Below are positions 12,508 to 56,210 of a stretch of 64,000 bases of DNA, one piece after another. The notes beneath the pieces are model-generated. The model worked only from the letters and a program-made list of their open reading frames with translations. It made no database searches and had not been told where the DNA came from. The DNA comes from Candidatus Wolfebacteria bacterium GW2011_GWE2_44_13 (GTDB taxonomy: Bacteria; Patescibacteriota; Minisyncoccia; UBA6257; UBA9933): positions 424,875-488,874 of the forward strand of contig LCHW01000001.1 of assembly GCA_001000675.1 (NCBI GenBank). Reading direction: 5' to 3'. The position numbers and the translations under genes are program-made. Positions within the stretch are counted from its first letter, which is position 1. The number at the start of each line of letters is the position of its first letter.

Positions 12508-12515
12508 GATGAAAA

Positions 12516-12541
12516 AAAAGGGAGCCACTAGGGCTCCCGTT
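12516..12541 (-). terminator. Rho-independent terminator (GGGAGCC-actag-GGCTCCC plus T8 on the minus strand). Copy 1 of an exact 26-bp repeat.
   Basis: The string aaaagggagccactagggctcccgtt also occurs at 13616..13641. Confidence 0.7.
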
Positions 12542-12562: not shown

Positions 12563-13534
12563 TTAGACGAACAGGCTTCTTTCGAAAAACTGCACAAGAT
12601 TTTCTCCGACGACGGTGTGAGTTTTTTCGCCGGCGATATCACGAATACTATTCGCGATGTGCTCGAGCTTGTTCGGTCCGAGAAAGATCTCTGGGTGTTC
12701 CGGATACCGCGCACCCCATGTTCCCTGGGGGTCGATCTTCGTGCGCATCATTTCAAACTGCGCACGTGCTTGCTCCTCGTCCACGTTCGAGTATGTCCCG
12801 TCGCTTCCGATAACGACAGACTCGATGCCACACACATTAATTGCATGCCTGATGTGTGCTCGGAAATGATTAATGTCCTCGTTTCCGTTCCCGAGAATAA
12901 ATTCGAGTGTTGGGATGCCGATTACACCGCCACGTTCTGCAATCTCGCGCAATACCTGGTCGGGTAAATTGCGGAAATGCGGATACACTCCGTAGCACCC
13001 TGTGTGCGATGCCATTACTGGAAGAAACAGCCGAGCTTCGTGGATGAACCTGAGCACCTCCCTTGCCATGCGATGACTTGCATGAGCGAGATCGAGAATC
13101 ATGCCCTTTTCCTGATCCATCGCCCTGAGAACGTCTTTTCCTGCCTGCGTTAGTCCGACATCCAGGTTCATACACCCACTGCCGTACATATTCACGGTGT
13201 CGTACGCCAGTGAGATAACTTGAATGCCAGCGCCTTTAAGGGCAGTAATGTCCACATTGTCCGGAAGGTTTTGAAGCCCCAGGATAATAGCGGTCGAGTT
13301 ATCTTCGCGAGCCATCACGATGTCATCTGTGTGCGTTGCGATTGTAACCAGGCTATCTGCATTTTGGAACAGGGCCACCTTAAATTTCTCGGCCTCCTCC
13401 AGCACCATGCTGGTTGTTGGTGCCCACGGCGGAGCACATGTGACAAGCGCCAAGTCAATTGCCATGTCACTCGTGATTGTCGGGGGTTGTCCGGGCATTC
13501 CGAAAAATGCCATCGCGTCTGCTCTTCTTGCCAT
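12563..13534 (-). CDS. Membrane dipeptidase (peptidase M19 family). The gene is clearly GC-richer than its surroundings.
   Basis: Motifs LDLAHAS and VIGSDGTY and the overall renal-dipeptidase-like pattern are present. GC content is visibly higher than in neighbouring genes. Confidence 0.8.
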   Translation of the reverse strand: MARRADAMAFFGMPGQPPTITSDMAIDLALVTCAPPWAPTTSMVLEEAEKFKVALFQNADSLVTIATHTDDIVMAREDNSTAIILGLQNLPDNVDITALKGAGIQVISLAYDTVNMYGSGCMNLDVGLTQAGKDVLRAMDQEKGMILDLAHASHRMAREVLRFIHEARLFLPVMASHTGCYGVYPHFRNLPDQVLREIAERGGVIGIPTLEFILGNGNEDINHFRAHIRHAINVCGIESVVIGSDGTYSNVDEEQARAQFEMMRTKIDPQGTWGARYPEHPEIFLGPNKLEHIANSIRDIAGEKTHTVVGENLVQFFERSLFV

Positions 13535-13615
13535 TGTCTTGCTCCTTTTCTCTGTAGTTGTAGGATAGTGAACTGACTATATTATGAACATATTCTATAT
13601 ATTTGTCAAGGTACA

Positions 13616-13641
13616 AAAAGGGAGCCACTAGGGCTCCCGTT
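13616..13641 (-). terminator. Rho-independent terminator. Copy 2 of the exact 26-bp repeat.
   Basis: It is identical to 12516..12541. It lies downstream of the minus-strand gene 13646..14161. Confidence 0.7.
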
Positions 13642-14585: not shown

Positions 14586-14879
14586 ATGGCACATACCAAA
14601 GCCAAGGGGTCTACCAAAAATGGCCGAGACTCCCAGGCTCAACGATTAGGAGTAAAGCGACAGCACGGCCAGACTGTCGGCGCCGGTGAGATCTTGATCC
14701 GCCAGCGTGGAACTAAATATTTGCCAGGTCTCAATGTAGCCCGAGCAAAAGATGACAGCCTTTACGCGATGATTCCAGGAACTCTTCAGTTCTTGTCTCG
14801 CTCAAAAGTATGTTTTAACGGCAACCGTCGAGAAGTAAAAGTTTTGACGATTGTTGCAAAGACAGCTGTAGAAGCATAA
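14586..14879 (+). CDS. rpmA: 50S ribosomal protein L27 (with a C-terminal extension).
   Basis: The N-terminus [25 protein letters not shown]...RQRGTKY matches the L27 signature. Confidence 0.9.
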
Positions 14880-14890
14880 CCCTTTATAAA

Positions 14891-14920
14891 AACCCCTCAG
14901 CCTAGGCTGAGGGGTTTTTG
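14891..14920 (+). terminator. Rho-independent terminator (cccctcagcctaggctgagggg followed by tttttg).
   Basis: A hairpin plus a T-run after rpmA. Confidence 0.8.
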
Positions 14921-14938
14921 TTTCATCAATATTTGTTG

Positions 14939-15294
14939 TGTCATTCCGGCGGATGCGGGAATCCATCTTCATTTTTTAGAACATCTTTTCGTTCCACTTT
15001 TTTTATAAAAAGTAGAGTAAAAAATCGCGAGCGAATAAAAATAGGGGGATGTGTTCTGGAATTTCTAACAAAACTGCGAACTCGCTCTTGCGCACCGCTC
15101 AGACACCGCAGTTTTTGAGGAAATTTCTATCGCACATCTAATCCCCTATTTTCACAGGCTCGCAGATAAGGATTAATAGAAGAAACTCAGGCACCGAGCC
15201 CATCCGGCAAGCTCAGGGTAAAGTTTCTTCCAATATTTTTCCAGCGACCTTTCTCCGAAATATTTCCATGTTCGGAAAAATGCAATTAAAATTC
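14939..15294 (+). repeat. Copy A of a roughly 300-350 bp hairpin-rich repeat family (candidate structured ncRNA or MITE-like element).
   Basis: It shares the ordered blocks tgtcattccNg..cgggaatcca, the hairpin ACTTTTT..AAAAAGT, aaactgcgaactcgctcttgcgcaccgctcagacaccgcagtttttgaggaaattt, and ccgaaatatttccatgttcgg.aaatgcaa with 55217..55545. Confidence 0.6.
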
Positions 15295-15928
15295 AACGTA
15301 CTTGTGTTGTTGTTAGGATATTAATCGCCTCTTTTATTTTGTCATCAAAATTTTCGTCCATATTCAAAACGGCGAGTTTATATTTCTCCACTCCTTCTTT
15401 GAAGAAATTCCCGTAGGTGCAGATCATGTTCGCAATGCTTCGATATGTTTCTTTACTATGAGTGCGTCCCAATATCCAATCATCGGGAGTTGTGCTCTTC
15501 TCTATCCCCTCAATAAATTTTTCGAGGTCTGATTTTATAAGAAAAATACTTTTTATTTTTCCTGGATATTTTTGGATAAGCTTCGCGGCAAGCTCGGGTT
15601 CGATATGGTATCCTTCGATAATAAAATCATTGCCGTAAACGATCTCGCACTCTGCAAACATTTCTATTGCTTGATAGGAAGTTTTTGCTTGTTGTCGATA
15701 TGCATCGATAATTTCCTTTGCTGAATATTTAGAAAATTTTTCATCGTTAGTGGCGCTTCGCTGGCCTAATGTAGGAAACTTTCCCAATATGTCCTTTTCG
15801 TTGATATAGGGACGGATAATACATTCGAGTGTATCAGTTGAAACCCAAGGAAGCCCTAGTGATTTTGAAAGGGTTTTTGTTAGTGTTGTTTTGCCGCATT
15901 TTGGTGGTCCACCGATAAGATAAATCAT
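15293..15928 (-). CDS. P-loop NTPase / nucleotide kinase-like protein.
   Basis: The Walker A motif is IGGPPKCGKTTL. It is the last gene of the rplI operon. Confidence 0.55.
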   Translation of the reverse strand: MIYLIGGPPKCGKTTLTKTLSKSLGLPWVSTDTLECIIRPYINEKDILGKFPTLGQRSATNDEKFSKYSAKEIIDAYRQQAKTSYQAIEMFAECEIVYGNDFIIEGYHIEPELAAKLIQKYPGKIKSIFLIKSDLEKFIEGIEKSTTPDDWILGRTHSKETYRSIANMICTYGNFFKEGVEKYKLAVLNMDENFDDKIKEAINILTTTQVR

Positions 15929-15965
15929 ACTATTTATTTCTAGACAAAGAATTAATAGGGAGTAC

Positions 15966-16460
15966 TCAAAGACCCCATTCTTTCGAAGTATATTTCGCTT
16001 GCTGTAATAAGAGTTCGATTTGTTTTTGTATTTCTAAAACATCAGCATCCGTTAAGGATTCGACGTTGTCGTAGAATCCAGTTTCGCGATGTGGCGCTTG
16101 AATTGCATCACCCCATTTGTTTATAGGTGCGCTTTTTGCGCGGCCATACAAATGAATATGGAGATACGGACCTTCGGGCTTCAAAACACTCCAATTTCCA
16201 TTATCTTGGTAGTTTATTCTTCCAATATCAATGCCCTGATTATTAAGGCCAATAGTCATCGCTTCACCAACGAGCATTGTTAGGCGCATAAGTTCGATTG
16301 CTAGTTTAGGCGACAATTGTGTGCGATCAACAAGTCTAGTCTTAGGGGATATTCTAATATGCCCACCATCAGTACGTGAAACATGGGGATGATCGACTGC
16401 TTCAACAATAAAATTTTCCGTTTGATATATTTGTGCCATTGTGATATTTTCTACGATCAT
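15966..16460 (-). CDS. HIT (histidine triad)-like hydrolase/transferase.
   Basis: A histidine triad-like motif PYLHIHLYGR is present. Confidence 0.5.
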   Translation of the reverse strand: MIVENITMAQIYQTENFIVEAVDHPHVSRTDGGHIRISPKTRLVDRTQLSPKLAIELMRLTMLVGEAMTIGLNNQGIDIGRINYQDNGNWSVLKPEGPYLHIHLYGRAKSAPINKWGDAIQAPHRETGFYDNVESLTDADVLEIQKQIELLLQQAKYTSKEWGL

Positions 16461-16480
16461 CGCAGATGAAATGCGAAATA

Positions 16481-17086
16481 TTATTTATTTAGAATAACCA
16501 ATTCCCTAACCCTTCCTACTGGAGTGGTGTATAATATTTGCTCTGTAGTGCTAAATATTTTTGATAACCTATTTTTCCAGTCATCGTAATAAAATTTGCA
16601 TGGCTCATAGTCATCTTCTTCATTATAGACAGTCCCCTTTGCTGGATTATCGATAAGAATTAGTCCGTTAGTTTTTAACATATCCTTCGCTCTTTTAATT
16701 GTAGTCAATTGTGCCTCTTTTGAGAACTCCCCTATAACTGTCCATGGGAAAATAATTACATCAAAATTATTGCCTTGATAGTTTTCAAATGCAGAGTAGA
16801 TAACCATGTCCTCAACATTCTTTATTCCATTATTCGCTAAATAATTTTTAAAAAAAATGAGGTACGGTTGATGCTGTTCGATTCCTATGTATTTATAAAC
16901 GCTTATTAAATGCTTGCCTATCCTACCGGTCCCACACCCGACTTCTAGAATAGAATTATTGATTTTAAGATATTTTTCGAATTGTAAAAAATCAGCTGGA
17001 CTCTCGCCTCCTAACCCAGCTTGCTCGGCAAAGTAATTTAATTCTTCACAATTTACATTATCGTATACGGACATGTTTATTTCCAA
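16481..17086 (-). CDS. Class I SAM-dependent methyltransferase.
   Basis: Motif I is LEVGCGTGRIG, followed by an acidic motif II. Confidence 0.75.
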   Translation of the reverse strand: MEINMSVYDNVNCEELNYFAEQAGLGGESPADFLQFEKYLKINNSILEVGCGTGRIGKHLISVYKYIGIEQHQPYLIFFKNYLANNGIKNVEDMVIYSAFENYQGNNFDVIIFPWTVIGEFSKEAQLTTIKRAKDMLKTNGLILIDNPAKGTVYNEEDDYEPCKFYYDDWKNRLSKIFSTTEQILYTTPVGRVRELVILNK

Positions 17087-17106
17087 AGCATTTTATCTAT
17101 GCAATT

Positions 17107-17565
17107 TTACTGTTCCGGATTAAGCATTACTACTATCTTCGCATCAACGCCGTGGCCGAGGGGGATTGCGACTTCGTTTGCGCCGAGCGTTTTGATTGGC
17201 TTTTCTAGCTCAACTTTCACAACCCCCTTTTCTTTTCCGAGCGGAGATAGCTTTGATTTAATTGCCTCTTCTACTTCGTGTTTTGTTACGGAGCCAAATA
17301 CTTCATTATGCTTGCCAACTTTTGTTGTGAACGTAAAAGGGCTTTCGTTCATTGCTTTTACTGATGCGAGCAACTCTTCTACGAGTCTCTGTTGCTGCTT
17401 TTCCTTGCTTTCCTTTTGTACTTGCAACTCGTGTGTTGCTTGACCTGTCGCAACCTTAACTAATCCTTTTGGGATAAGGAGGTTTTTGGCATGGCCATCG
17501 GAGACGTTTTTCACGTCGCCTTTTTTACCGAGACCTTTTACGTCTGCTAGGAATATTACCTTCAT
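17107..17565 (-). CDS. rplI: 50S ribosomal protein L9.
   Basis: The N-terminus [35 protein letters not shown] is the typical L9 N-domain. Confidence 0.9.
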
Positions 17566-22606: not shown

Positions 22607-22656
22607 AAAAATAAGTTGGTTAGGTTACGCTCGACGTTGCTTCTATTATATCAAAT

Positions 22657-22689
22657 AGTAACAAAAAACGCCCCCGAGTGGGGGCGTTG
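22657..22689 (-). terminator. Terminator/repeat unit T1 (aacgcccccgagtgggggcgtt plus T-run on the minus strand).
   Basis: A member of a 4-copy repeat family. The other copies are at 23365, 24050 and 24458. Confidence 0.7.
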
Positions 22690-22692
22690 AAA

Positions 22693-22983
22693 CTACTTGT
22701 GAAACGTGTAATTGAATAACACGTTTGAGTCCAGAAAATAGGTAATCGTCTGGCTTCCTTCACGCACAGTGATCTCTGAGTAGCTAAAGAGATTTCGTTT
22801 TGTCTTGATGACTTCGGTGATAGTTGGATGATCTACTCGCAGTTCTTTTAGAACGCCGTCCGACGTCCACCATGCATTGTTCGTGGGGATGACTACTACG
22901 TTCACTACCACGATTAGCGCGATAACGATAACGATTATCAGCTCGATAAGCGTGTATCCTTTGCAATTACGAAGGTTGGTCAT
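22693..22983 (-). CDS. Type IV pilin / pseudopilin-like protein (96 aa) with a class III signal peptide.
   Basis: The prepilin motif is MTNLRNCKG-YTLIELIIVIVIALIV. The SD is aaAGGAGcagggccATG. I trimmed the start to the ATG at 22983. Confidence 0.65.
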   Translation of the reverse strand: MTNLRNCKGYTLIELIIVIVIALIVVVNVVVIPTNNAWWTSDGVLKELRVDHPTITEVIKTKRNLFSYSEITVREGSQTITYFLDSNVLFNYTFHK

Positions 22984-23021
22984 GGCCCTGCTCCTTTTGT
23001 TGAATGCTTTGAACGATGCGT

Positions 23022-23303
23022 TTATGCCTCGTCCAAGAACTTGATGAAGATCAACGGCATCTTGCGTATTTCGTGCCGTCCATGCAACAAATTCACGACT
23101 CGCTGCACTTCCTGGAATGCTTTGATATCCGGGGCGACGCATTCGAGATACGGAAACGGATCGCCTAAATGATCGGCGACTTTTGACTGAACAATTTCGG
23201 TCACGAGTTTATGTGCCATACGGGATGACAACGCGGTAACGATTTCTCGGCGAATTTTTTCCGCCTCCACTTCTCCAACTCCATGAATCTTCACAATAAT
23301 CAT
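23022..23303 (-). CDS. Small protein (93 aa), paralog A, with a tautomerase-like N-terminus.
   Basis: The sequence MIIVKIHGVGEVEAEKIRREIVTALSSRM is paralogous to 23426..23707, sharing PYL.C.A.D..F.EVQRVV.LL.GR.EI.KMPL. The SD is AGGAGG. Confidence 0.5.
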   Translation of the reverse strand: MIIVKIHGVGEVEAEKIRREIVTALSSRMAHKLVTEIVQSKVADHLGDPFPYLECVAPDIKAFQEVQRVVNLLHGRHEIRKMPLIFIKFLDEA

Positions 23304-23364
23304 CGGTTGTCCTCCTGTGTGAGAGTTAATAGTGCTGATTAGATTAAATAATAATATATAAAAT

Positions 23365-23399
23365 ATGTCAAACTAAAAACGCCCCGAGGTGGGGCGTTG
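23365..23399 (-). terminator. Terminator/repeat unit T2 (atgtcaaactaaaaacgccccgaggtggggcgttg).
   Basis: The hairpin plus T-run is on the minus strand. The conserved flank atgtcaaac is shared with T3 and T4. Confidence 0.7.
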
Positions 23400-23425
23400 G
23401 GTGTATTTCGAGTTATCAAATACAG

Positions 23426-23707
23426 CTATGAAGCATCGGAGAGCTCCACGTATAACAAAGGCATTTTTGGAATTTCGTAACGCCCCTGCAGTATCGTAAC
23501 AACTCGCTGCACTTCCCTGAAGCTTCGACGATCATGCGCAGTGCATTTGAGATACGGGCACTTCTCTTCCCTGTGGTTCTCGATGTTGGACAAAATAATT
23601 TCAATCACGAGAACTCTTTGTAATGGGATTGATGCTGCGTTGAATATCTTTGTCCGCAGTGCCTGTGCGTCGCTCGTGTTGGCGCCGTGAATTTCTAAGA
23701 TCGTCAT
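23426..23707 (-). CDS. Small protein (93 aa), paralog B (MTILEIHGANTSDAQALRTKIFNAASIPL...).
   Basis: Paralog of 23022..23303. The SD is GGGAGGT. I trimmed the start to the ATG at 23707. The Arg-rich N-terminal extension in the ORF track is read-through. Confidence 0.5.
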   Translation of the reverse strand: MTILEIHGANTSDAQALRTKIFNAASIPLQRVLVIEIILSNIENHREEKCPYLKCTAHDRRSFREVQRVVTILQGRYEIPKMPLLYVELSDAS

Positions 23708-23727
23708 GCGGGCTACCTCCCTTTGTC

Positions 23728-23988
23728 TTAGTCTGCCGCGGGGCGCAAGCGCCCAGTTTCCTCGAAATACTCGATCTCCTCGAGAATCATGAGTCGCGCG
23801 CCGACGATATCGAGTGCGTCGGGAGTTGCCTCGTAAAAGAGGAGCAACTGCAAGACCTTTTCGATAATGTGTTGGCTTAACGTTTCCGGCTCTATGCCGG
23901 TGGGGCCCTTCTTTTCCGTTGCCCATCGATAGAGGTCTCCGTAATTCGCGAGTTTTGCCACCTCGTCGCCGATCTGTTCGCTGTCCAT
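23728..23988 (-). CDS. Small acidic protein (86 aa, MDSEQIGDEVAKLANYGDLYRW...).
   Basis: The SD is GAGGTGA. It lies 20 nt upstream of paralog B and is co-transcribed with it. I trimmed it from the longer ORF. Confidence 0.4.
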   Translation of the reverse strand: MDSEQIGDEVAKLANYGDLYRWATEKKGPTGIEPETLSQHIIEKVLQLLLFYEATPDALDIVGARLMILEEIEYFEETGRLRPAAD

Positions 23989-24049
23989 AGACGTCACCTC
24001 GTTTTTAGGATGTTTTGAGCTGTCCCTACTGTATTTATTTTTTGTAACG

Positions 24050-24084
24050 ATGTCAAACAAAAAACGCCCCGAGATGGGGCGTTT
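24050..24084 (-). terminator. Terminator/repeat unit T3 (atgtcaaacaaaaaacgccccgagatggggcgttt).
   Basis: A repeat family member with a hairpin plus T-run on the minus strand. Confidence 0.7.
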
Positions 24085-24088
24085 GGCA

Positions 24089-24391
24089 TTACCGCGGACG
24101 GTATGCGATAACCTGCACGACTTCGATGTCGTACGTTTCTGCTGCGCAGAGATGTTCGCAGGAATCGATGAGCCCGATGATGCTGCGATGGTCCTCATCG
24201 GGAGTGATGTATGCCCGCAGAAACGGACGATTTCCTTGGCGCTCAACGCGCTCGCATACGCCGTTGACGACCGTGATACGGCAATCTTTTCCTGGTCTGT
24301 GATGCCGGATGTGCCTCCTGAGCTTGTTTCGATCGTGAATCATTTCTTCGAATTCGTGTCCTGGTCTGCCTCCAAACTCGATGTGTATCAT
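24089..24391 (-). CDS. Small protein (100 aa) with a Cys pattern C-x8-C...C-x3-C.
   Basis: The SD is gAGGAGGtttccATG. Repeat unit T3 follows it. Confidence 0.4.
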   Translation of the reverse strand: MIHIEFGGRPGHEFEEMIHDRNKLRRHIRHHRPGKDCRITVVNGVCERVERQGNRPFLRAYITPDEDHRSIIGLIDSCEHLCAAETYDIEVVQVIAYRPR

Positions 24392-24457
24392 GGAAACCTC
24401 CTCTCTCCTTCGATTAGGGTGATGGAGCTACTCGCACTGTAAGTATTTTAGGAGAAA

Positions 24458-24489
24458 ATGTCAAACTAAAAACGCCTCGCGGCGTCTTT
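24458..24489 (-). terminator. Terminator/repeat unit T4 (atgtcaaactaaaaacgcctcgcggcgtcttt), a degenerate copy.
   Basis: The same conserved flank with a mutated stem. It lies downstream of the S51 peptidase gene. Confidence 0.55.
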
Positions 24490-25114
24490 ATGCTGAAATT
24501 ATTTTAAGTGTATCGTTATCGACCCATATTGCTTGGTTGTCATGCAGTAATATGAGCGGTTCTGCGTGGTTGGAGAGCTCCTTAATAATCTCGGCATATT
24601 CACTTGCGAATTCCGGATTATTGCAGTGCGGAATGACGCCGAAGTTGATAAGCCCTAATCCCCTTCTGTTGGGGACGGTATCGAGAAATTCTTTCTCACC
24701 CTCGTCAAACGCAAATAGGGCGAGTGATTCAGAAATAATCATTGAGCCTGCGCTTGATCCTGTATAGATAACAGATTCGCTTTTTACTGCGTCGATAATA
24801 CTCTGCCCTAGATTTTTTTCTCGTAATAATCCGACGAGATAAAAAACACTTCCGCCGGCAATATGTAGAATGTCTGTATCCTCGAGTGCCTGTGTGAGCG
24901 CTCCCGTCGAAGTGGTTCGTAGGTCTATATCAGTCAGCTTGTAGCCGAGCTCCGTGAATTTAATTCGATCATTACTTACCCACCATGCATCTTTTGTAGG
25001 ATAGTTGTCAGATGCATTTGCAATAAATAAAACTTTTGTAGCCGCTTTGTTTTGCAAAAGCGGCTTAAGGAGTGGAAGGGTTTTATCGATTGCGGATGCG
25101 AGGAAGAGTTTCAT
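24488..25114 (-). CDS. Peptidase S51 (dipeptidase E / cyanophycinase-like).
   Basis: The serine motif YTGSSAGSMI lies in a class I glutamine-amidotransferase-like fold. Confidence 0.7.
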   Translation of the reverse strand: MKLFLASAIDKTLPLLKPLLQNKAATKVLFIANASDNYPTKDAWWVSNDRIKFTELGYKLTDIDLRTTSTGALTQALEDTDILHIAGGSVFYLVGLLREKNLGQSIIDAVKSESVIYTGSSAGSMIISESLALFAFDEGEKEFLDTVPNRRGLGLINFGVIPHCNNPEFASEYAEIIKELSNHAEPLILLHDNQAIWVDNDTLKIISA

Positions 25115-27913: not shown

Positions 27914-27949
27914 ATAGCTTATTATACTGAATTGTTTGTTGTTTGGATA

Positions 27950-27975
27950 TAAAAAGCCCCCGATGGGGGGCTTAG
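27950..27975 (-). terminator. Rho-independent terminator (agcccccgatggggggct).
   Basis: A hairpin plus T-run on the minus strand after gene 27989..28423. Confidence 0.6.
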
Positions 27976-27988
27976 GGCGGCATGGATC

Positions 27989-44144: not shown

Positions 44145-44172
44145 AGTATACCCCCTCCCCTGTGTTTGTCAA
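44145..44172 (-). promoter_or_regulatory. Sigma70-like promoter TTGACA-N16-TATACT (minus strand) for the PhoH2 gene.
   Basis: Read directly from the sequence. Confidence 0.5.
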
Positions 44173-44207
44173 AAAAAACAGGCTTATCGTATGATAAGCC
44201 TGTTTTT
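44171..44207. terminator. Bidirectional terminator (A8-acaggcttatc-gtat-gataagcctgt-T5).
   Basis: Read directly from the sequence. Confidence 0.7.
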
Positions 44208-53326: not shown

Positions 53327-55213
53327 TTATTTGCCCTTTGCTGATTTGTTTCGATCAGTTTCGTTTAAATATTTTTTGCGTAATCGAATGCTCTTCGGAG
53401 TAACTTCGAGATATTCATCTTCAGCCATTACTTCGAGGCCGCGTTCTAATGATACGGTAAGTGGTGGAATTAGTTGGATAGCTTCATCAGCTCGTGACGA
53501 ACGCATGTTTGTGAGCTGCTTACCCTTGATTGGGTTAACGGTCATGTCTTGTCCCTTTGCAGTATTGCCAATGACCATACCTTCGTACACTTCAGTGTTG
53601 GCATCGATAAAGAGTGTGCCGCGTTCCTGTAAGTTTGCGAGCGAGAACGCAAGCGCCTTACCCGCTACCATGGAAATCATAGACCCTAATTCTGTCTTTA
53701 CGATTTCTCCTGCAAATGGGCGAAATCCGATGAACCGGCTACATAAAATTCCTTCGCCGCGCGTATCAATTGTAAACTGTCCGCGATAGCCAAGTAGTCC
53801 TCGTGTAGGAATCTCGAACAAGACGCGCGTGTAGCTTTCGATCTGCTTCATTTGCGTCATAATACCGCGACGCTTTCCGAGTGTTTCGATAACAACACCA
53901 GCCATTTTTTCTGGTACGTCAATAACAACCTCTTCGTATGGTTCCATTTTCTTCCCATCCTCTTCTCGCATAATAACCTGTGGCTGCGATACTTGCAGCT
54001 CGTACCCTTCGCGACGCATGTTTTCCAAAAGAATTGCGATGTGCATTTCTCCACGACCGTATACCTTAAAGGTATCTCCGCCAGAAAAATCTACTTTTAA
54101 GCCGACGTTAACTTCAAGCTCCTTTTCTAGGCGCTCTTTAATCTGTCGTGTTGTTACAAATTTACCTTCTTTTCCTGCAAATGGAGAATCGTTTACCAAG
54201 AAGTTTAGCGAGATTGTAGGCTCATCAATTGCGATTGCTGGCAGTGCTTCTTGGTCTGCACTTACACACAATGTTTCGCCAATGTCGATGTTTGGTAACC
54301 CTGCAATCATAACAATATCACCTGAGCTTACTGATAGTGAATCGATGCGCTCCAGGCCTTTAAAGGTGAAGAGTTTTGTAATTTTACCGGTGCGTGTTTC
54401 ACCTGTTGGCTTTTTGATAATGAGCGTATCGCCCACTTTTGTTGTTCCTTCATAGACACGTGCGATCGCAAGTCGACCCAAGAAATTGTCATACGCCAAG
54501 TTAAATGGCTGTGCACGAAAAGGTGCATCATCACGCATATGGCTTGGCTGAACTTCGTCAATGATTACGTCTAATAATGGGGTCAGATCTTTTGAATCAT
54601 CAGTCAAGTTCTTTTTTGCAATACCTTCGCGCCCGATTGCATAGACAGTGGTAAAGTTCAGCTGCTCATCGGTTGCTCCTAAGTCCATAAATAATTCAAG
54701 AACCATCTCATGTGCTTCTTCTGGATTTGCGGCTGGCTTGTCGATTTTATTGATAATAACAATCGGCTTTAATCCGAGCTCGAGCGACTTCTTCAATACG
54801 AATCGTGTCTGTGGCATTGGGCCTTCTTGTGCATCAACAACCAATAATACGGAGTCAATGGAGCGTAATACGCGCTCTACTTCAGATCCGAAATCGGCGT
54901 GTCCTGGGGTATCCACAATATTGACCTTTGTACCTTTGTACATGATCGATGCATTTTTTGCATAGATAGTAATACCACGCTCTTTTTCAAGCGTGTTGCT
55001 GTCCATGCTTACTCCTTCAACAGCGGCTCCTGTTTGTTTTAGGATTGCGTCGGTGAGTGTTGTTTTGCCGTGGTCTACGTGTGCGATAATCGCAATATTG
55101 CGGATTTCCATATAAAAAAGCCCTTTGGGGCAGTATCTATTAATTGAGTTACCATTATAACGTAAAGGTTGAAAATTGTCCAGCCTTTTTAAGGCTTCCG
55201 AAATACTTCCCAA
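53327..55213 (-). CDS. typA: Translational GTPase BipA/TypA.
   Basis: The G1 motif is AIIAHVDHGKTTL. The EF-G-like domain order is present. Confidence 0.9.
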   Translation of the reverse strand: MGSISEALKRLDNFQPLRYNGNSINRYCPKGLFYMEIRNIAIIAHVDHGKTTLTDAILKQTGAAVEGVSMDSNTLEKERGITIYAKNASIMYKGTKVNIVDTPGHADFGSEVERVLRSIDSVLLVVDAQEGPMPQTRFVLKKSLELGLKPIVIINKIDKPAANPEEAHEMVLELFMDLGATDEQLNFTTVYAIGREGIAKKNLTDDSKDLTPLLDVIIDEVQPSHMRDDAPFRAQPFNLAYDNFLGRLAIARVYEGTTKVGDTLIIKKPTGETRTGKITKLFTFKGLERIDSLSVSSGDIVMIAGLPNIDIGETLCVSADQEALPAIAIDEPTISLNFLVNDSPFAGKEGKFVTTRQIKERLEKELEVNVGLKVDFSGGDTFKVYGRGEMHIAILLENMRREGYELQVSQPQVIMREEDGKKMEPYEEVVIDVPEKMAGVVIETLGKRRGIMTQMKQIESYTRVLFEIPTRGLLGYRGQFTIDTRGEGILCSRFIGFRPFAGEIVKTELGSMISMVAGKALAFSLANLQERGTLFIDANTEVYEGMVIGNTAKGQDMTVNPIKGKQLTNMRSSRADEAIQLIPPLTVSLERGLEVMAEDEYLEVTPKSIRLRKKYLNETDRNKSAKGK

Positions 55214-55216
55214 TGT

Positions 55217-55545
55217 TTGTCATTCCCGTGCAGACGGGAATCCAGGCTTTCGTACTTTTTCAAAAAAGTACGTCCGTCGGATTCGAAAAGGAAGGATCAA
55301 ATCCGACAGCCCGGCACGTTGCACGCTTGCTCCGCTCGCTAGCAACGCCAAGGCTCAAAACTGTGAACTCGCTCCTGCGCACCGCTCAAACAACCCAGTT
55401 TTTGAGGAAATTTTTTTCGCCTATTTTATCCGTCATTTTTACGGATGCTTGGGGAATACGAATTAATGCGCCCTTAATCCGAAATATTTTCATGTTCGTA
55501 GATGCAAAATACATTCTCTGTCATTCCCGTCCTTCGACACTCAGA
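55217..55545 (+). repeat. Copy B of the hairpin-rich repeat family. It is flanked by the direct repeat tgtcattcccgt (55217 and 55519).
   Basis: It contains the perfect stems cattcccg/cgggaatg, CGTACTTTTT/AAAAAGTACG and gtcggatt/aatccgac. It shares ordered blocks with 14939..15294. Confidence 0.6.
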
Positions 55546-55552
55546 GCGCATA

Positions 55553-55581
55553 ATAAAAAAAAGCCGCTCGTATAGAGCGGC
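55553..55581 (-). terminator. Rho-independent terminator (agccgctc-gtata-gagcggct plus T8 on the minus strand).
   Basis: A hairpin after gene 55612..56100. Confidence 0.7.
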
Positions 55582-55611
55582 TGTTATAGTGAAAGACTAT
55601 TTACGAGGATT

Positions 55612-56100
55612 CTAGATAAGGCTTCCTCCCCAGTATTCGTGATAGCCAAGTACTCGGCCCGTTTCGATGCTTTTAATTACTTCATACCCCCTCATCTCGC
55701 GAAAAGACGCACTCGTGCAATTATTGATATACAATAGATCACCTTCTTCGCAAGATTGCGGGCCACGACACCCCACGGAACTGCCTGTCGTATATGCCTT
55801 CGTGAGAGCAGCCTTTAAAAATGAGATAACCTTCTTTGGATACGACCCTCCGTACGACATTAGCCAAATTGGCTTACCCTTGTAGAATATCGTTGTTGTT
55901 CCGACTGAGTAAGTCGATCGAGGCATTGTGTAGTAGCGATCTACTACCGTGAAGCCTTCTTCGATACATGTAATCGTCGTATACCCATCAGTTGTCTTAA
56001 TCTTGGGTACGCCATCGCCCTCTTCGCTTGCATATCCAGACAGCATTGCAGCGATGAAAGCCTTTTTTGCCCAATCTAATATCTCATTTCGTTTGTCCAT
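55612..56100 (-). CDS. Hypothetical protein (162 aa).
   Basis: An ORF with a terminator. Confidence 0.45.
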   Translation of the reverse strand: MDKRNEILDWAKKAFIAAMLSGYASEEGDGVPKIKTTDGYTTITCIEEGFTVVDRYYTMPRSTYSVGTTTIFYKGKPIWLMSYGGSYPKKVISFLKAALTKAYTTGSSVGCRGPQSCEEGDLLYINNCTSASFREMRGYEVIKSIETGRVLGYHEYWGGSLI

Positions 56101-56210
56101 TACTAGTCCCTCTCTTATTTTTTGGTTGGATTTAAATTAGCTAAAAATAGCATACCTTTTCTTGTTATTTTGTCAAACAAAAAACCGCCGGAAAATCCGG
56201 CGGATCTTTT

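What the first reader, a model, noticed from the sequence alone, without database searches (positions are those of the whole stretch)
14939..15294. Two copies of a ~300-bp hairpin-rich repeat family with compensatory stem changes (candidate novel structured ncRNA or miniature mobile element)
Regions 14939..15294 and 55217..55545 share the same order of blocks. The first is a stem cattcc(c/g)g...cgggaatcc. The second is a stem ACTTTTT..AAAAAGT in copy A versus CGTACTTTTT..AAAAAGTACG in copy B. That is different sequence with the same pairing, which means covariation.

Next comes a 60-nt near-identical block aaactg(c/t)gaactcgctc(t/c)tgcgcaccgctca(g/a)aca...cagtttttgaggaaattt. Its flanks pair as AAACTGCG/CGCAGTTT and it ends in a T-run. 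The last block is ccgaaatattt.catgttcg..a.atgcaa.

Copy B is bounded by the direct repeat tgtcattcccgt. Neither copy contains a credible ORF. The covariation argues for an RNA-level function rather than neutral duplication.
Basis: seen in the sequence. Interest (0 to 1): 0.65.

Follow-up and report, generated by a model that had tools for sequence, protein, structure and literature searches.

The report
Hairpin-rich mosaic intergenic DNA repeat
The two regions are copies of a small, non-coding, palindrome-rich intergenic repeat in a Candidatus Wolfebacteria genome; it starts with a hairpin of the widespread type cut by Ssn single-strand DNA nucleases and sits next to strain-variable gene islands, so it looks like a DNA-level recombination or mobile element rather than a new RNA gene.

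Summary
The ordered shared blocks are real. They are a 25-nt GC hairpin, an AT-rich palindrome, an 87-nt block (83% identical) and a 31-nt block (87%). Only about half of each ~300 nt aligns.

The organism is Candidatus Wolfebacteria GW2011_GWE2_44_13 (CPR, Rifle groundwater). A sister strain with 99% identical backbone has an orthologous but remodelled copy B and a third copy at a new site, and it lacks copy A.

Hairpin 1 (TGTCATTCCCGYGNAGRCGGGAATCCA) is the NTS/SRM hairpin, an extended Neisseria dRS3. SsnA GIY-YIG nucleases cut it as ssDNA, not RNA. It occurs in more than 120 unrelated viral contigs. The other modules are lineage-restricted long quasi-palindromes.

No Rfam family, promoter or credible ORF was found. 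Copy B lies upstream of the typA promoter and downstream of a terminator. Three of four strain-variable islands abut a copy, and the gene between copies A and C is 93.5% identical against 99% for the backbone.

One loop shows a flip/flop inversion, typical of DNA palindromes.

Best reading: a NIME/BIME-like mosaic repeat headed by an Ssn-type hairpin. I could not check whether the genome has an ssn gene. Interest is modest.

The parts
14939..14966 (+). Copy A, module H1: an NTS/SRM-like hairpin, TGTCATTCCGGCGGATGCGGGAATCCAT. The arms are 14943-14950 and 14955-14962, with one G-G mismatch in the stem.
   Evidence: 5 mismatches to the 28-nt NTS consensus. The GTC upstream of the palindrome and the C after it are both present.
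14996..15013 (+). Copy A, module M2: the AT-rich palindrome ACTTTTTTTATAAAAAGT.
15027..15162 (+). Copy A, long quasi-palindrome (LP). The arms are about 50 nt (GCGAGC...AATAGGGGGATGTG...GGAATTTCTAACAAAACTGCG, pairing with CGCAGTTTTTGAGGAAATTTC...CACATCTAATCCCCTATT...GCTCGC). They surround a conserved 28-nt centre.
   Evidence: Folding (z -5.5 to -6.5).
15069..15155 (+). Copy A, the 87-nt block shared with copy B at 83% identity. The inner stem is 15070-15078 pairing with 15107-15115. The conserved centre AACTCGCTCTTGCGCACCGCTCAGACAC lies at 15079-15106.
   Evidence: (family D3).
15179..15230 (+). Copy A only: an extra hairpin, GAAGAAACT...AGTTTCTTC. It corresponds in position to the inner stem of the sister-strain copy C.
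15222..15276 (+). Copy A, right-end block M5c-M6 (TTCCAATATTTTTCCAGCG..TCCGAAATATTTCCATGTTCGGA). It is 91% identical over 53 nt to copy C and 87% over 31 nt to copy B. It contains the small hairpin TCCGAA/TTCGGA at 15254-15276. The kinase-like gene's stop codon follows at 15293-15295.
   Evidence: (family D11).
55218..55245 (+). Copy B, module H1: TGTCATTCCCGTGCAGACGGGAATCCAG. The arms are 55222-55229 and 55234-55241. It is an exact dRS3 core (ATTCCC-N8-GGGAAT) and matches the published SRM search pattern.
   Evidence: PMC11893778.
55251..55272 (+). Copy B, module M2: the palindrome CGTACTTTTTCAAAAAAGTACG. Its loop TCAA is the reverse complement of the loop TTGA in copy C.
55276..55347 (+). 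Copy B only: two hairpins, GTCGGATT..AATCCGAC at 55276-55307 and CGTTGC..GCAACG at 55317-55347. They replace the left arm of the long palindrome that the sister-strain ortholog B' still has.
55356..55442 (+). Copy B, the 87-nt block. The inner stem is reduced to 7 bp (55357-55363 pairing with 55396-55402). The right arm of the palindrome is orphaned and forms a local hairpin, ATCCGT..ACGGAT, at 55428-55446.
55468..55514 (+). Copy B, right-end block M6 (55468-55498) plus a shared tail ending in ATACAT (55509-55514). Homology with the sister strain stops at 55514.
55519..55530 (+). An isolated half-NTS (TGTCATTCCCGT) at the start of the strain-specific island that carries the DUF5680 gene. It is not part of copy B.
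   Evidence: Half-site plus full-hairpin arrangements are common elsewhere.
55154..55182 (-). Context: the typA promoter-like site, TGGACA-17-TATAAT (11 of 12 matches). It lies between H1 and the typA ATG at 55111, so copy B is upstream of the promoter and is not a 5' leader.
   Evidence: gene calls.
55562..55582 (-). Context: the intrinsic terminator of the DUF5680 gene, which lies between that gene and copy B.
14890..14920 (+). Context: the terminator hairpin of rpmA (L27), immediately left of copy A.

Best explanation
The two regions are copies of a lineage-restricted, non-coding, 220-340-bp mosaic intergenic repeat in Candidatus Wolfebacteria. The repeat is built from palindromic units.

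**Layout of each copy**
1. An oriented NTS/SRM-type hairpin (extended dRS3, ATTCCC-N8-GGGAAT with GTC upstream and C downstream).
2. An AT-rich palindrome.
3. One or two long quasi-palindromes around a conserved centre (GAACTCGC..CGCTCARACA).
4. A conserved right end (..TCCGAAATATTTCCATGTTCGG..ATACAT).

**Shown**
- The anatomy above.
- Membership of hairpin 1 in the widespread NTS/SRM sequence family.
- Absence of coding, Rfam and promoter signals.
- Presence/absence differences and module swapping between strains that are 99% identical.
- Location next to strain-variable islands.

**Inferred mechanism**
The element acts as DNA, not RNA. I infer the following, by analogy with Neisseria NTS/NIME.
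- Its hairpins extrude in single-stranded DNA, for example during uptake by transformation, replication or repair.
- Hairpin 1 is then recognised by an Ssn-type GIY-YIG ssDNA nuclease, or by another hairpin-specific recombinase.
- The repeated palindromes serve as breakpoints or substrates for recombination with incoming DNA and with each other.

This would explain why neighbouring genes are replaced or more divergent. Paired arms are kept by palindrome dynamics (template switching, loop flip/flop) and by selection for the ssDNA hairpin.
For: **Identity and repeat structure**
- The organism and contig were identified.
- The shared ordered blocks are far above chance.
- A third copy (C) and the ortholog B' occur in sister strains.
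- Copy A is absent from the sister strain.
- No further copies occur in the window plus or minus 10 kb, or in the sister-strain tiles.

**Hairpin 1**
- It matches the dRS3 core and, in B and B', the published SRM pattern. It differs from the NTS consensus by 2-5 mismatches.
- The same hairpin occurs in more than 120 viral contigs with 32-72% GC.
- Its partner SsnA cuts ssDNA only (PMC11893778).

**The other modules are lineage-restricted**
- Zero hits in genome representatives and viral contigs, and only chance hits in metagenomes.
- The 4 viral-contig matches to the M2 pattern look like chance perfect palindromes.

**No RNA or coding signal**
- No Rfam family, no tRNA or tmRNA, and no Pfam domain in any ORF.
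- No promoter-like site inside the copies. Copy B lies between a terminator and the typA promoter.

**Folding and pairing**
- Complete copies fold with z -5.5 to -6.5, on both strands and with DNA parameters.
- 95% of cells are paired and 5 pairs have changes on both sides.
- The M2 loop is TCAA in copy B and TTGA in copy C, a flip/flop.

**Strain comparison**
- The backbone is about 99% identical.
- Islands at window 14920-15310, 15943-17112 and 55515-56177 each abut a copy.
- The kinase-like gene between A and C is 93.5% identical.
- L002 and L007 diverge just past the right end of copy C.

**Parallel in Neisseria**
NIME arrays are dynamic between strains, flank more divergent CDS, and hold recombination end points (PMC1797815).
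Against: - Only two hairpin-1 copies occur in 64 kb, and three loci in about 84 kb across two strains. Genomes with active Ssn/NTS systems typically carry hundreds.
- No GIY-YIG ORF was seen in the window or the fetched loci (regex only). The rest of the genome could not be searched.
- Copy A's hairpin has a stem mismatch and misses the SRM pattern. Copy C also misses it.
- Each element has a single dRS3, not RS units flanked on both sides as in NIMEs.
- The association with variable islands rests on three loci and could simply reflect that the repeat is itself part of the variable DNA.
- No expression data exist, so read-through transcription is not excluded. In all three loci the element lies 3' of a gene on the same strand.
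Confidence: 0.55

Rival explanations
1. The element is a non-autonomous mobile element moved as a unit through a single-stranded DNA intermediate. The mover would be a trans-acting hairpin-specific enzyme: an IS200/IS605-type TnpA or RAYT, an Ssn-like GIY-YIG nuclease, or an IS110/Piv-type recombinase. Hairpin 1 would be the left subterminal hairpin and the M6 hairpin the right one.
For: - The element occupies different loci in 99%-identical strains: copy A in one and copy C in the other.
- Its ends are discrete. Contexts diverge just beyond the right end in L002, L007 and B/B'.
- It has hairpins near both ends with no terminal inverted repeat or target-site duplication, as expected for IS200/605-like PATEs.
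- The Ssn paper notes that NTS-ssnA-NTS resembles an IS.
Against: - No clean empty site exists. Where a copy is missing, unrelated DNA replaces it and the break points lie inside neighbouring genes or terminators.
- There is no conserved tetranucleotide at the left junctions (TTG, GTT, GCT, TTC).
- No transposase was found in about 84 kb.
- Copy number is very low.
- Internal modules are swapped between orthologs, which points to recombination rather than transposition.
Confidence: 0.2
2. The element is a structured RNA. It could be a small RNA gene, or a 3'-UTR element transcribed from the window's minus strand by read-through from the upstream gene. In that case its hairpins would stabilise the mRNA, as REP elements do, or present the conserved 28-nt loop to a binding partner.
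For: - Predicted structure is strong.
- Some compensatory changes exist and the loop is conserved.
- All three loci have the same orientation relative to the upstream gene: M6 lies nearest that gene's stop, 17-24 nt away for A and C.
Against: - No Rfam family and no internal promoter.
- Copy B is separated from its upstream gene by a strong terminator.
- It is not conserved at orthologous sites between near-identical strains.
- It folds equally well on both strands.
- The same orientation in 3 of 3 loci has a chance probability of 0.25.
- Hairpin 1's known partner does not act on RNA.
Confidence: 0.1
3. The repeats are functionless remnants. They would be scars of past recombination or duplication of spacer DNA that happen to contain common palindromes, drifting neutrally.
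For: - Copy number is low.
- Copy A's hairpin 1 is degenerate, and copy B's long palindrome is broken (z only -2 to -2.8).
- Half of each copy is unalignable.
Against: - The same order of four modules is kept in three unlinked loci.
- 95% pairing is maintained, with compensated changes.
- Hairpin 1 keeps the oriented flanks needed for Ssn binding and cutting in all copies (PMC11893778).
Confidence: 0.15

Closest known systems
NTS / SRM hairpins, the targets of Ssn (cd10448 GIY-YIG) single-stranded DNA nucleases (Nat Commun 2025, PMC11893778)
   Same: - Hairpin 1 has the dRS3 core ATTCCC-N8-GGGAAT.
- It has GTC upstream of the palindrome and C after it, the positions the paper reports as affecting cleavage and as most crucial for binding.
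- Copies B and B' match the published SRM search pattern.
- The hairpins are intergenic, oriented, and near variable genes.
   Different: - There are 2-5 mismatches to the 28-nt Neisseria NTS consensus.
- Only about 2 copies occur per 64 kb, not hundreds per genome.
- No ssn gene was seen in the DNA available.
- The host is a CPR bacterium. CPR names do not occur in that paper's main text, and its supplementary files were not held for checking.
Neisserial intergenic mosaic elements (NIMEs: RS units flanked by dRS3; PMC1797815)
   Same: - A mosaic of repeat modules is attached to a dRS3-type hairpin.
- Structure differs between strains at syntenic sites.
- Neighbouring CDS are more divergent or replaced.
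- Break points lie at or next to the repeats.
   Different: - There is one dRS3 per element rather than RS units bracketed by dRS3 on both sides.
- There are no arrays.
- The 'RS' part is itself long quasi-palindromes.
- The phylum is different.
REP/BIME clusters of enterobacteria and pseudomonads (with RAYT transposases)
   Same: - They are clusters of imperfect palindromes with conserved linkers in intergenic DNA, often 3' of genes.
- They act both as DNA (protein binding, recombination) and as RNA (3' stabilisers).
   Different: - The sequences are unrelated.
- The palindromes here are much longer (arms up to about 50 nt).
- Copy number is tiny.
- No RAYT was identified.
ERIC and Correia-type long palindromic repeats, and MITEs
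   Same: Elements of 100-150 nt fold into one long imperfect hairpin, are intergenic, and vary between strains.
   Different: There are no terminal inverted repeats at the element ends, no target-site duplication and no clean empty site. A genuine MITE-like insertion in the sister strain (L021:17334-17537) shows all of these, which makes the contrast clear.

Membership tests
NTS/SRM (Ssn-related motif) hairpin | dRS3 core ATTCCC-N8-GGGAAT | tested here: met
   Copy B has ATTCCCGTGCAGACGGGAAT exactly, and B' and C also match. Copy A has ATTCCG on the left arm, one mismatch.
NTS/SRM (Ssn-related motif) hairpin | The 28-nt NTS consensus CGTCATTCCCGCGMAVGCGGGAATCYRG with at most 1 mismatch, which is the paper's search criterion | tested here: not met
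   Mismatches are A 5, B 3, B' 2 and C 3.
NTS/SRM (Ssn-related motif) hairpin | The degenerate SRM pattern HGTCWY N0-2 YYVSBRH N0-5 WNVSBRG N0-2 RNCYNB | tested here: inconclusive
   B and B' match exactly. A and C do not. There is one match in the window against 0.16 in shuffles.
NTS/SRM (Ssn-related motif) hairpin | Oriented flanks: GTC immediately 5' of the palindrome and C immediately 3' (reported as affecting cleavage and as most crucial for binding) | tested here: met
   All four versions read TGTC-ATTCC...GGAAT-CC (PMC11893778).
NTS/SRM (Ssn-related motif) hairpin | An ssn (cd10448 GIY-YIG, about 94 aa) gene in the same genome, usually flanked by the hairpin | not testable with these tools
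   No GIY-YIG-like ORF was found by regex in the window or related loci.
NTS/SRM (Ssn-related motif) hairpin | Strong genome-wide enrichment (tens to hundreds of copies) | tested here: not met
   There are two copies in 64 kb and none in the additional flanks.
NIME (Neisseria intergenic mosaic element) | RS repeat units of about 50-150 bp flanked on both sides by dRS3, usually in arrays | tested here: not met
   There is one dRS3-type hairpin per element. The second 'half-site' near copy B lies outside the element.
NIME (Neisseria intergenic mosaic element) | Syntenic arrays differ between strains, and adjacent CDS are more divergent or hold recombination end points | tested here: met
   B and B' are remodelled. 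The kinase-like gene is 93.5% identical against about 99% for the backbone. Three of four islands abut a copy.
MITE | Terminal inverted repeats, a target-site duplication, and a precise empty site in a related genome | tested here: not met
   The ends (TGTCATTCC... and ...GTTCGG..ATACAT) are not inverted repeats. Alternative alleles carry unrelated DNA.
IS200/IS605-derived PATE or REP-RAYT | Subterminal hairpins at both ends without TIR or TSD | tested here: met
   Hairpin 1 starts 4 nt from the left end. The M6 hairpin lies at the right end.
IS200/IS605-derived PATE or REP-RAYT | A conserved target tetra- or pentanucleotide abutting the left end, and a cognate Y1 transposase or RAYT in the genome | tested here: inconclusive
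   The left flanks differ (..GTTG..TGTT..TGCT..TTTC). No transposase appears among the called genes of about 84 kb. The whole genome was not searchable.
Any curated RNA family (Rfam 15) | A match at the gathering score | tested here: not met
   There were 0 matches in the window. In E-value mode only terminator-driven hits appeared, far below threshold.
Integron attC site | R'' (RYYYAAC) and R' (GTTRRRY) core sites closing an imperfect palindrome, near an integrase | tested here: not met
   By inspection, the left side has TTCTAAC but the right side reads TTTGAGG with no GTTRRRY. No integrase appears among the neighbouring genes.

The most novel reading that the evidence does not exclude
The composite (Ssn-type hairpin, then long palindromes, then a right-end hairpin) would be a previously undescribed hairpin-ended element in a CPR bacterium, moved or exchanged as single-stranded DNA through an Ssn-like GIY-YIG nuclease. 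That would link Ssn/NTS systems to element mobility, or to control of DNA taken up by competence, in organisms thought (from my general knowledge of CPR biology) to rely on DNA uptake. A variant of this reading is that its conserved 28-nt loop marks a new CPR-specific structured RNA.
Probability: 0.12. Interest if true: 0.6.

Novelty: new variant of a known kind. Interest (0 to 1): 0.3.

Why it matters
If the reading is right, NTS/SRM hairpins extend into the Candidate Phyla Radiation. Until now these hairpins have mainly been studied in Neisseria and other Pseudomonadati. Here the hairpin sits at the junctions of strain-variable gene islands, the same association described for Neisseria NIME arrays. 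That would make CPR population genomes a place to test whether Ssn-type hairpins shape recombination tracts.

It also gives a practical warning. Hairpin-rich repeats with 'covarying' stems are not by themselves evidence for an RNA gene. Gene callers also place spurious ORFs over them, such as the 120-aa hypothetical protein UW32_C0001G0471.

On present evidence it is a low-copy, lineage-restricted repeat of modest general interest.

Tried and rejected
- **Known RNA family.** The Rfam gathering scan of the window gave nothing. E-value scans of both regions gave only terminator-like sub-threshold hits. ARAGORN found nothing.
- **Coding remnant, including a decayed ssn gene between hairpin 1 and the half-site.** Nine ORFs from copies A, B and C have no Pfam hit at E<=10, apart from two noise hits. 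The 120-aa ORF has only its ortholog as a homolog among 5.8 billion proteins. The peptide NSLLRTAQT resembles the TrmH motif only by chance.
- **typA 5' leader or riboswitch.** Rejected, because an 11/12 promoter lies between the element and typA.
- **Finding more copies in public collections.**
  - The 24-nt and 27-nt block patterns gave 0 hits in 185,579 representative genomes.
  - The 20-nt centre gave 6 metagenome hits, all chance matches inside high-GC genes.
  - The block patterns gave 0 hits in viral contigs.
  - The M2 palindrome gave 4 unrelated perfect palindromes.
- **More copies within this lineage.** Tiling the window plus or minus 10 kb in two or three strains with seven contig look-ups found none beyond A, B/B' and C.
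- **An ssn gene nearby.** A regex scan for GIY-YIG motifs found nothing in the window, the related loci, or the 120 viral loci carrying hairpin 1. The paper's supplements were not available.
- **attC and MITE readings.** Rejected on their defining features (see the membership test).
Full report
**Source and setting**

The window is a reversed part of a 541-kb groundwater metagenome contig (ENA ERZ909587 k127_247000, Rifle project PRJNA268031). An ORF over copy B is identical to a GenBank protein of Candidatus Wolfebacteria bacterium GW2011_GWE2_44_13, which has a contig of 608,601 bp. The organism is therefore a small-genome CPR (Parcubacteria) bacterium.

- Copy A (14939-15294) lies between the terminator of rpmA/L27 (+, 14586-14879) and the stop codon of a 211-aa P-loop kinase-like gene (-, 15293-15928). 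This is a convergent spacer.
- Copy B (55217-55545) lies between the start of typA (-) and the terminator of a DUF5680 gene (-, 55612-56100). The true typA ATG is at 55111, giving 594 aa.

**Checking the observation**

The ordered shared blocks are real and far above chance.
- GTCATTCCSG-N6-CGGGAATCC gives 2 matches against 0.02 expected.
- The 87-nt block 15069-15155 matches 55356-55442 at 83%.
- The 31-nt block 15244-15274 matches 55468-55498 at 87%.
- Both copies carry the AT palindrome ACTTTTT..AAAAAGT.

However, only about half of each region aligns.
- Stem 2 has the same core sequence in both copies. It is longer in B, with no covariation.
- The A-to-B change in the 60-nt block's stem breaks a pair.
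- Copy A's C-to-G change in hairpin 1 makes a mismatch.
- The right-hand 'tgtcattcccgt' (55519-55530) lies outside the element. Homology with the sister strain ends at 55514.

**More copies from related strains**

Contig look-ups with window proteins recovered a sister lineage: GCA_003508115.1, JGI Ga0209212_1000008 and several ENA and Logan assemblies. Its backbone is about 99% identical to the window.

- This lineage has an identical L27 protein but a completely different spacer downstream of it. That spacer has a different terminator and a 48-aa ORF, and no copy A.
- It carries a third copy (C, L002:7349-7575) on the other side of the kinase-like gene. A further strain has copy C next to pyrG (L007:4037-4262).
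- It has an ortholog of copy B (B', L021:6025-6305). In B' the middle part is different and a 39-nt segment is absent.
- No further copies exist in the window, its 10-kb flanks, or the sister-strain tiles.
- Short-read assemblies repeatedly break inside copy B.

**Anatomy**

- Every copy starts with hairpin 1, TGTCATTCC(C/G)G-N6-CGGGAATCCA.
- Next comes the palindrome GTACTTTTTYRAAAAAGTAC. Copy A has a shorter version.
- Then comes a long quasi-palindrome with arms up to about 50 nt around a conserved centre, GAACTCGC...CGCTCARACA.
- The arm sequences differ between copies but pair within each copy:
  - A: AATAGGGGGATGTG with CACATCTAATCCCCTATT.
  - B': AAAATGACGGAATAGGC with GCCTATTTTACCCGTCATTTT.
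  - C: the right arm is the conserved end block TTCCGATATTTTTCCAGCG..TCCGAAATATTTCCACGTTCG.
- In window copy B, two unrelated hairpins have replaced the left arm. This explains its weaker fold (z -2.1 and -2.8, against -5.5 to -6.5 for A, B' and C).
- Folding is equally good on both strands and with DNA parameters.
- Counting four helices on the five-sequence alignment gives 95% of cells paired and five pairs with changes on both sides:
  - the hairpin-1 closing pair C-G, T-G (B') and T-A (B);
  - two A-T to G-C changes in C's inner stem;
  - two outer pairs of the AT palindrome.
- These come from only about three independent lineages.
- The AT palindrome's loop is TCAA in B and TTGA in C, which are reverse complements. 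A flip/flop inversion explains this more simply than two substitutions. It is behaviour typical of DNA palindromes.

**What hairpin 1 is**

Some have recognisable Neisseria repeat context.
- A full-text search led to Nat Commun 2025;16:2388 (PMC11893778).
- That paper defines the 28-nt NTS, CGTCATTCCCGCGMAVGCGGGAATCYRG, an oriented extension of the Neisseria dRS3 ATTCCC-N8-GGGAAT. It also defines a degenerate Ssn-related motif (SRM).
- It shows that the 94-aa GIY-YIG protein SsnA (cd10448) binds and cuts this hairpin as single-stranded DNA. SsnA does not act on dsDNA or RNA.
- SsnA modulates integration of transforming DNA. SRM-ssn pairs occur across phyla.
- In this window, B and B' match the SRM pattern exactly.
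- All copies keep GTC before the palindrome and C after it. [quoted passage not shown]
- Mismatches to the Neisseria NTS consensus number 2-5, and copy A's stem is damaged.

**The other modules**

The remaining modules are restricted to this lineage.
- They gave zero hits in 185,579 representative genomes.
- The block patterns gave zero hits in viral contigs.
- They gave only chance hits in metagenomes.

**RNA or DNA?**

- Nothing in Rfam matches.
- There are no tRNA or tmRNA genes in the window.
- No promoter-like site lies within either copy.
- For copy B, an 11/12 promoter (TGGACA-17-TATAAT, 55182-55154, minus strand) lies between the element and typA, and a strong terminator (55582-55562) separates the element from the upstream gene. 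Copy B is therefore predicted to be untranscribed spacer.
- The copies occupy convergent (A), tandem (B, C) and divergent (C in L007) spacers.
- No ORF in any copy has a Pfam match.
- The annotated 120-aa ORF over copy B has only its own ortholog as a homolog.

Together with the ssDNA specificity of the only known partner of hairpin 1, this favours a DNA-level element. The one observation in favour of RNA is orientation. In all three loci the element lies 3' of a minus-strand gene, with the M6 end nearest its stop. With three loci, this has a chance probability of 0.25.

**Association with variable DNA**

Across about 84 kb compared between strains there are four replaced or inserted segments.
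- Window 14920-15310 is copy A itself.
- Window 15943-17112 corresponds to copy C plus a 304-aa membrane protein gene in L002.
- Window 55515-56177 starts right after copy B. It holds the DUF5680 gene, where the sister strain has HAD plus a divergent DUF5680.
- The fourth is an unrelated 204-nt insertion in the sister strain.

The kinase-like gene bracketed by A or C is 93.5% identical against about 99% for the backbone. L002 and L007 diverge within a few bases of the end of M6 (GTTCG). B and B' diverge 16 nt later, after a shared ATACAT.

This mirrors what is described for Neisseria NIME arrays. They are dynamic between strains, flank more divergent CDS, and hold most tbpB recombination end points (PMC1797815).

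The contrast with a true MITE is instructive. The sister-strain insertion L021:17334-17537 has roughly 16-22-nt terminal inverted repeats, sits in a T-run, and has a clean empty site in the window at about 44172. The elements studied here have none of these features.

**Conclusion**

The finding is a real repeat family. It is best described as a lineage-specific mosaic of palindromic units headed by an Ssn-type (NTS/SRM, dRS3-like) hairpin.

I infer that it works as DNA: its hairpins extrude in ssDNA, and it acts as a recombination junction or nuclease target. Maintenance as an ssDNA-mobilised unit is the main rival, and an RNA role is a minor one.

- It is not a member of NIME, because it has a single dRS3 and no arrays.
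- It is not a MITE, an attC site, or any Rfam family.
- Hairpin 1's membership of the NTS/SRM family is supported by sequence. The defining partner gene could not be looked for in the rest of the genome, and copy number is low.

I rate novelty as a new variant of a known kind, and interest as modest.

Noticed in passing
L021:17334-17537 (also L022, L023, L163); empty site in the window at about 44172-44175: There is a 204-nt MITE-like insertion in the sister strain, between a terminator and the promoter of the PhoH/PIN gene. It has terminal inverted repeats CCCGTAGTAGATTTT / AAAATCTACTACAGG, internal hairpins and a flanking T-run. It is absent from the window strain, and its end motif does not match anywhere else in the window.
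   Followed up: partly
window 12515-12541 and 13615-13641: Two 100% identical 27-nt hairpin repeats (AAAAAGGGAGCCACTAGGGCTCCCGTT) lie in direct orientation on either side of the Peptidase_M19 gene (12563-13534, minus strand). The arrangement looks like a cassette bracketed by duplicated terminators.
   Followed up: no
window 22642-24494 (also 27941-27977 and 56158-56192): A family of 35-37-nt units (ATGTCAAAC(A/T)AAAAACGCCCCGAGNTGGGGCGTT) repeats every 400-700 nt between small genes. Read on the minus strand, each unit is a terminator hairpin fused to a TTGACA-like promoter box. The same 'terminator-TTTTTTGACAAA' arrangement recurs elsewhere, for example L021:4570-4610.
   Followed up: no
window 14880-14920 compared with L002:6295-6335: Directly after the identical L27 stop codon, the two strains have different terminator hairpins (CCCCTCAGCC/GGCTGAGGGG against CCACCCATC/GATGGGTGG). 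The strain break point therefore lies exactly at the end of the coding sequence.
   Followed up: partly
L002:6403-6549: Where the window has copy A, the sister strain has a 48-aa ORF (MFVIPGGLAERLGFKDF...) with a strong AGGAAGGAG ribosome-binding site and its own terminator. It has no Pfam match. A 24-nt remnant (TTCACAGGCTCACAGATAA, L002:6659-6682) matches the right arm of copy A's long palindrome.
   Followed up: partly
L035, L036, L048, L069, L081, L110, L114, L124, L147 (viral contigs): In many unrelated genomes the full NTS hairpin is preceded, 12-14 nt upstream, by a lone half-site (G)TCATTCCCG. The window has such a lone half-site at 55519-55530. I did not see this 'half-site plus hairpin' arrangement described in the passages of the Ssn paper that I read.
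   Followed up: no
window 55213-55575 (+): GenBank annotates a 120-aa hypothetical protein (UW32_C0001G0471) across copy B. Its only homolog in 5.8 billion proteins is the 86-aa ORF over the orthologous copy B'. It is most likely a spurious call on repeat DNA.
   Followed up: yes
L012, L023, L024, L027, L151, L152 (Logan and ENA contigs): Independent short-read assemblies end or start inside copy B at different points. This is consistent with repeat- or strain-induced ambiguity in the assembly graph at this element.
   Followed up: no
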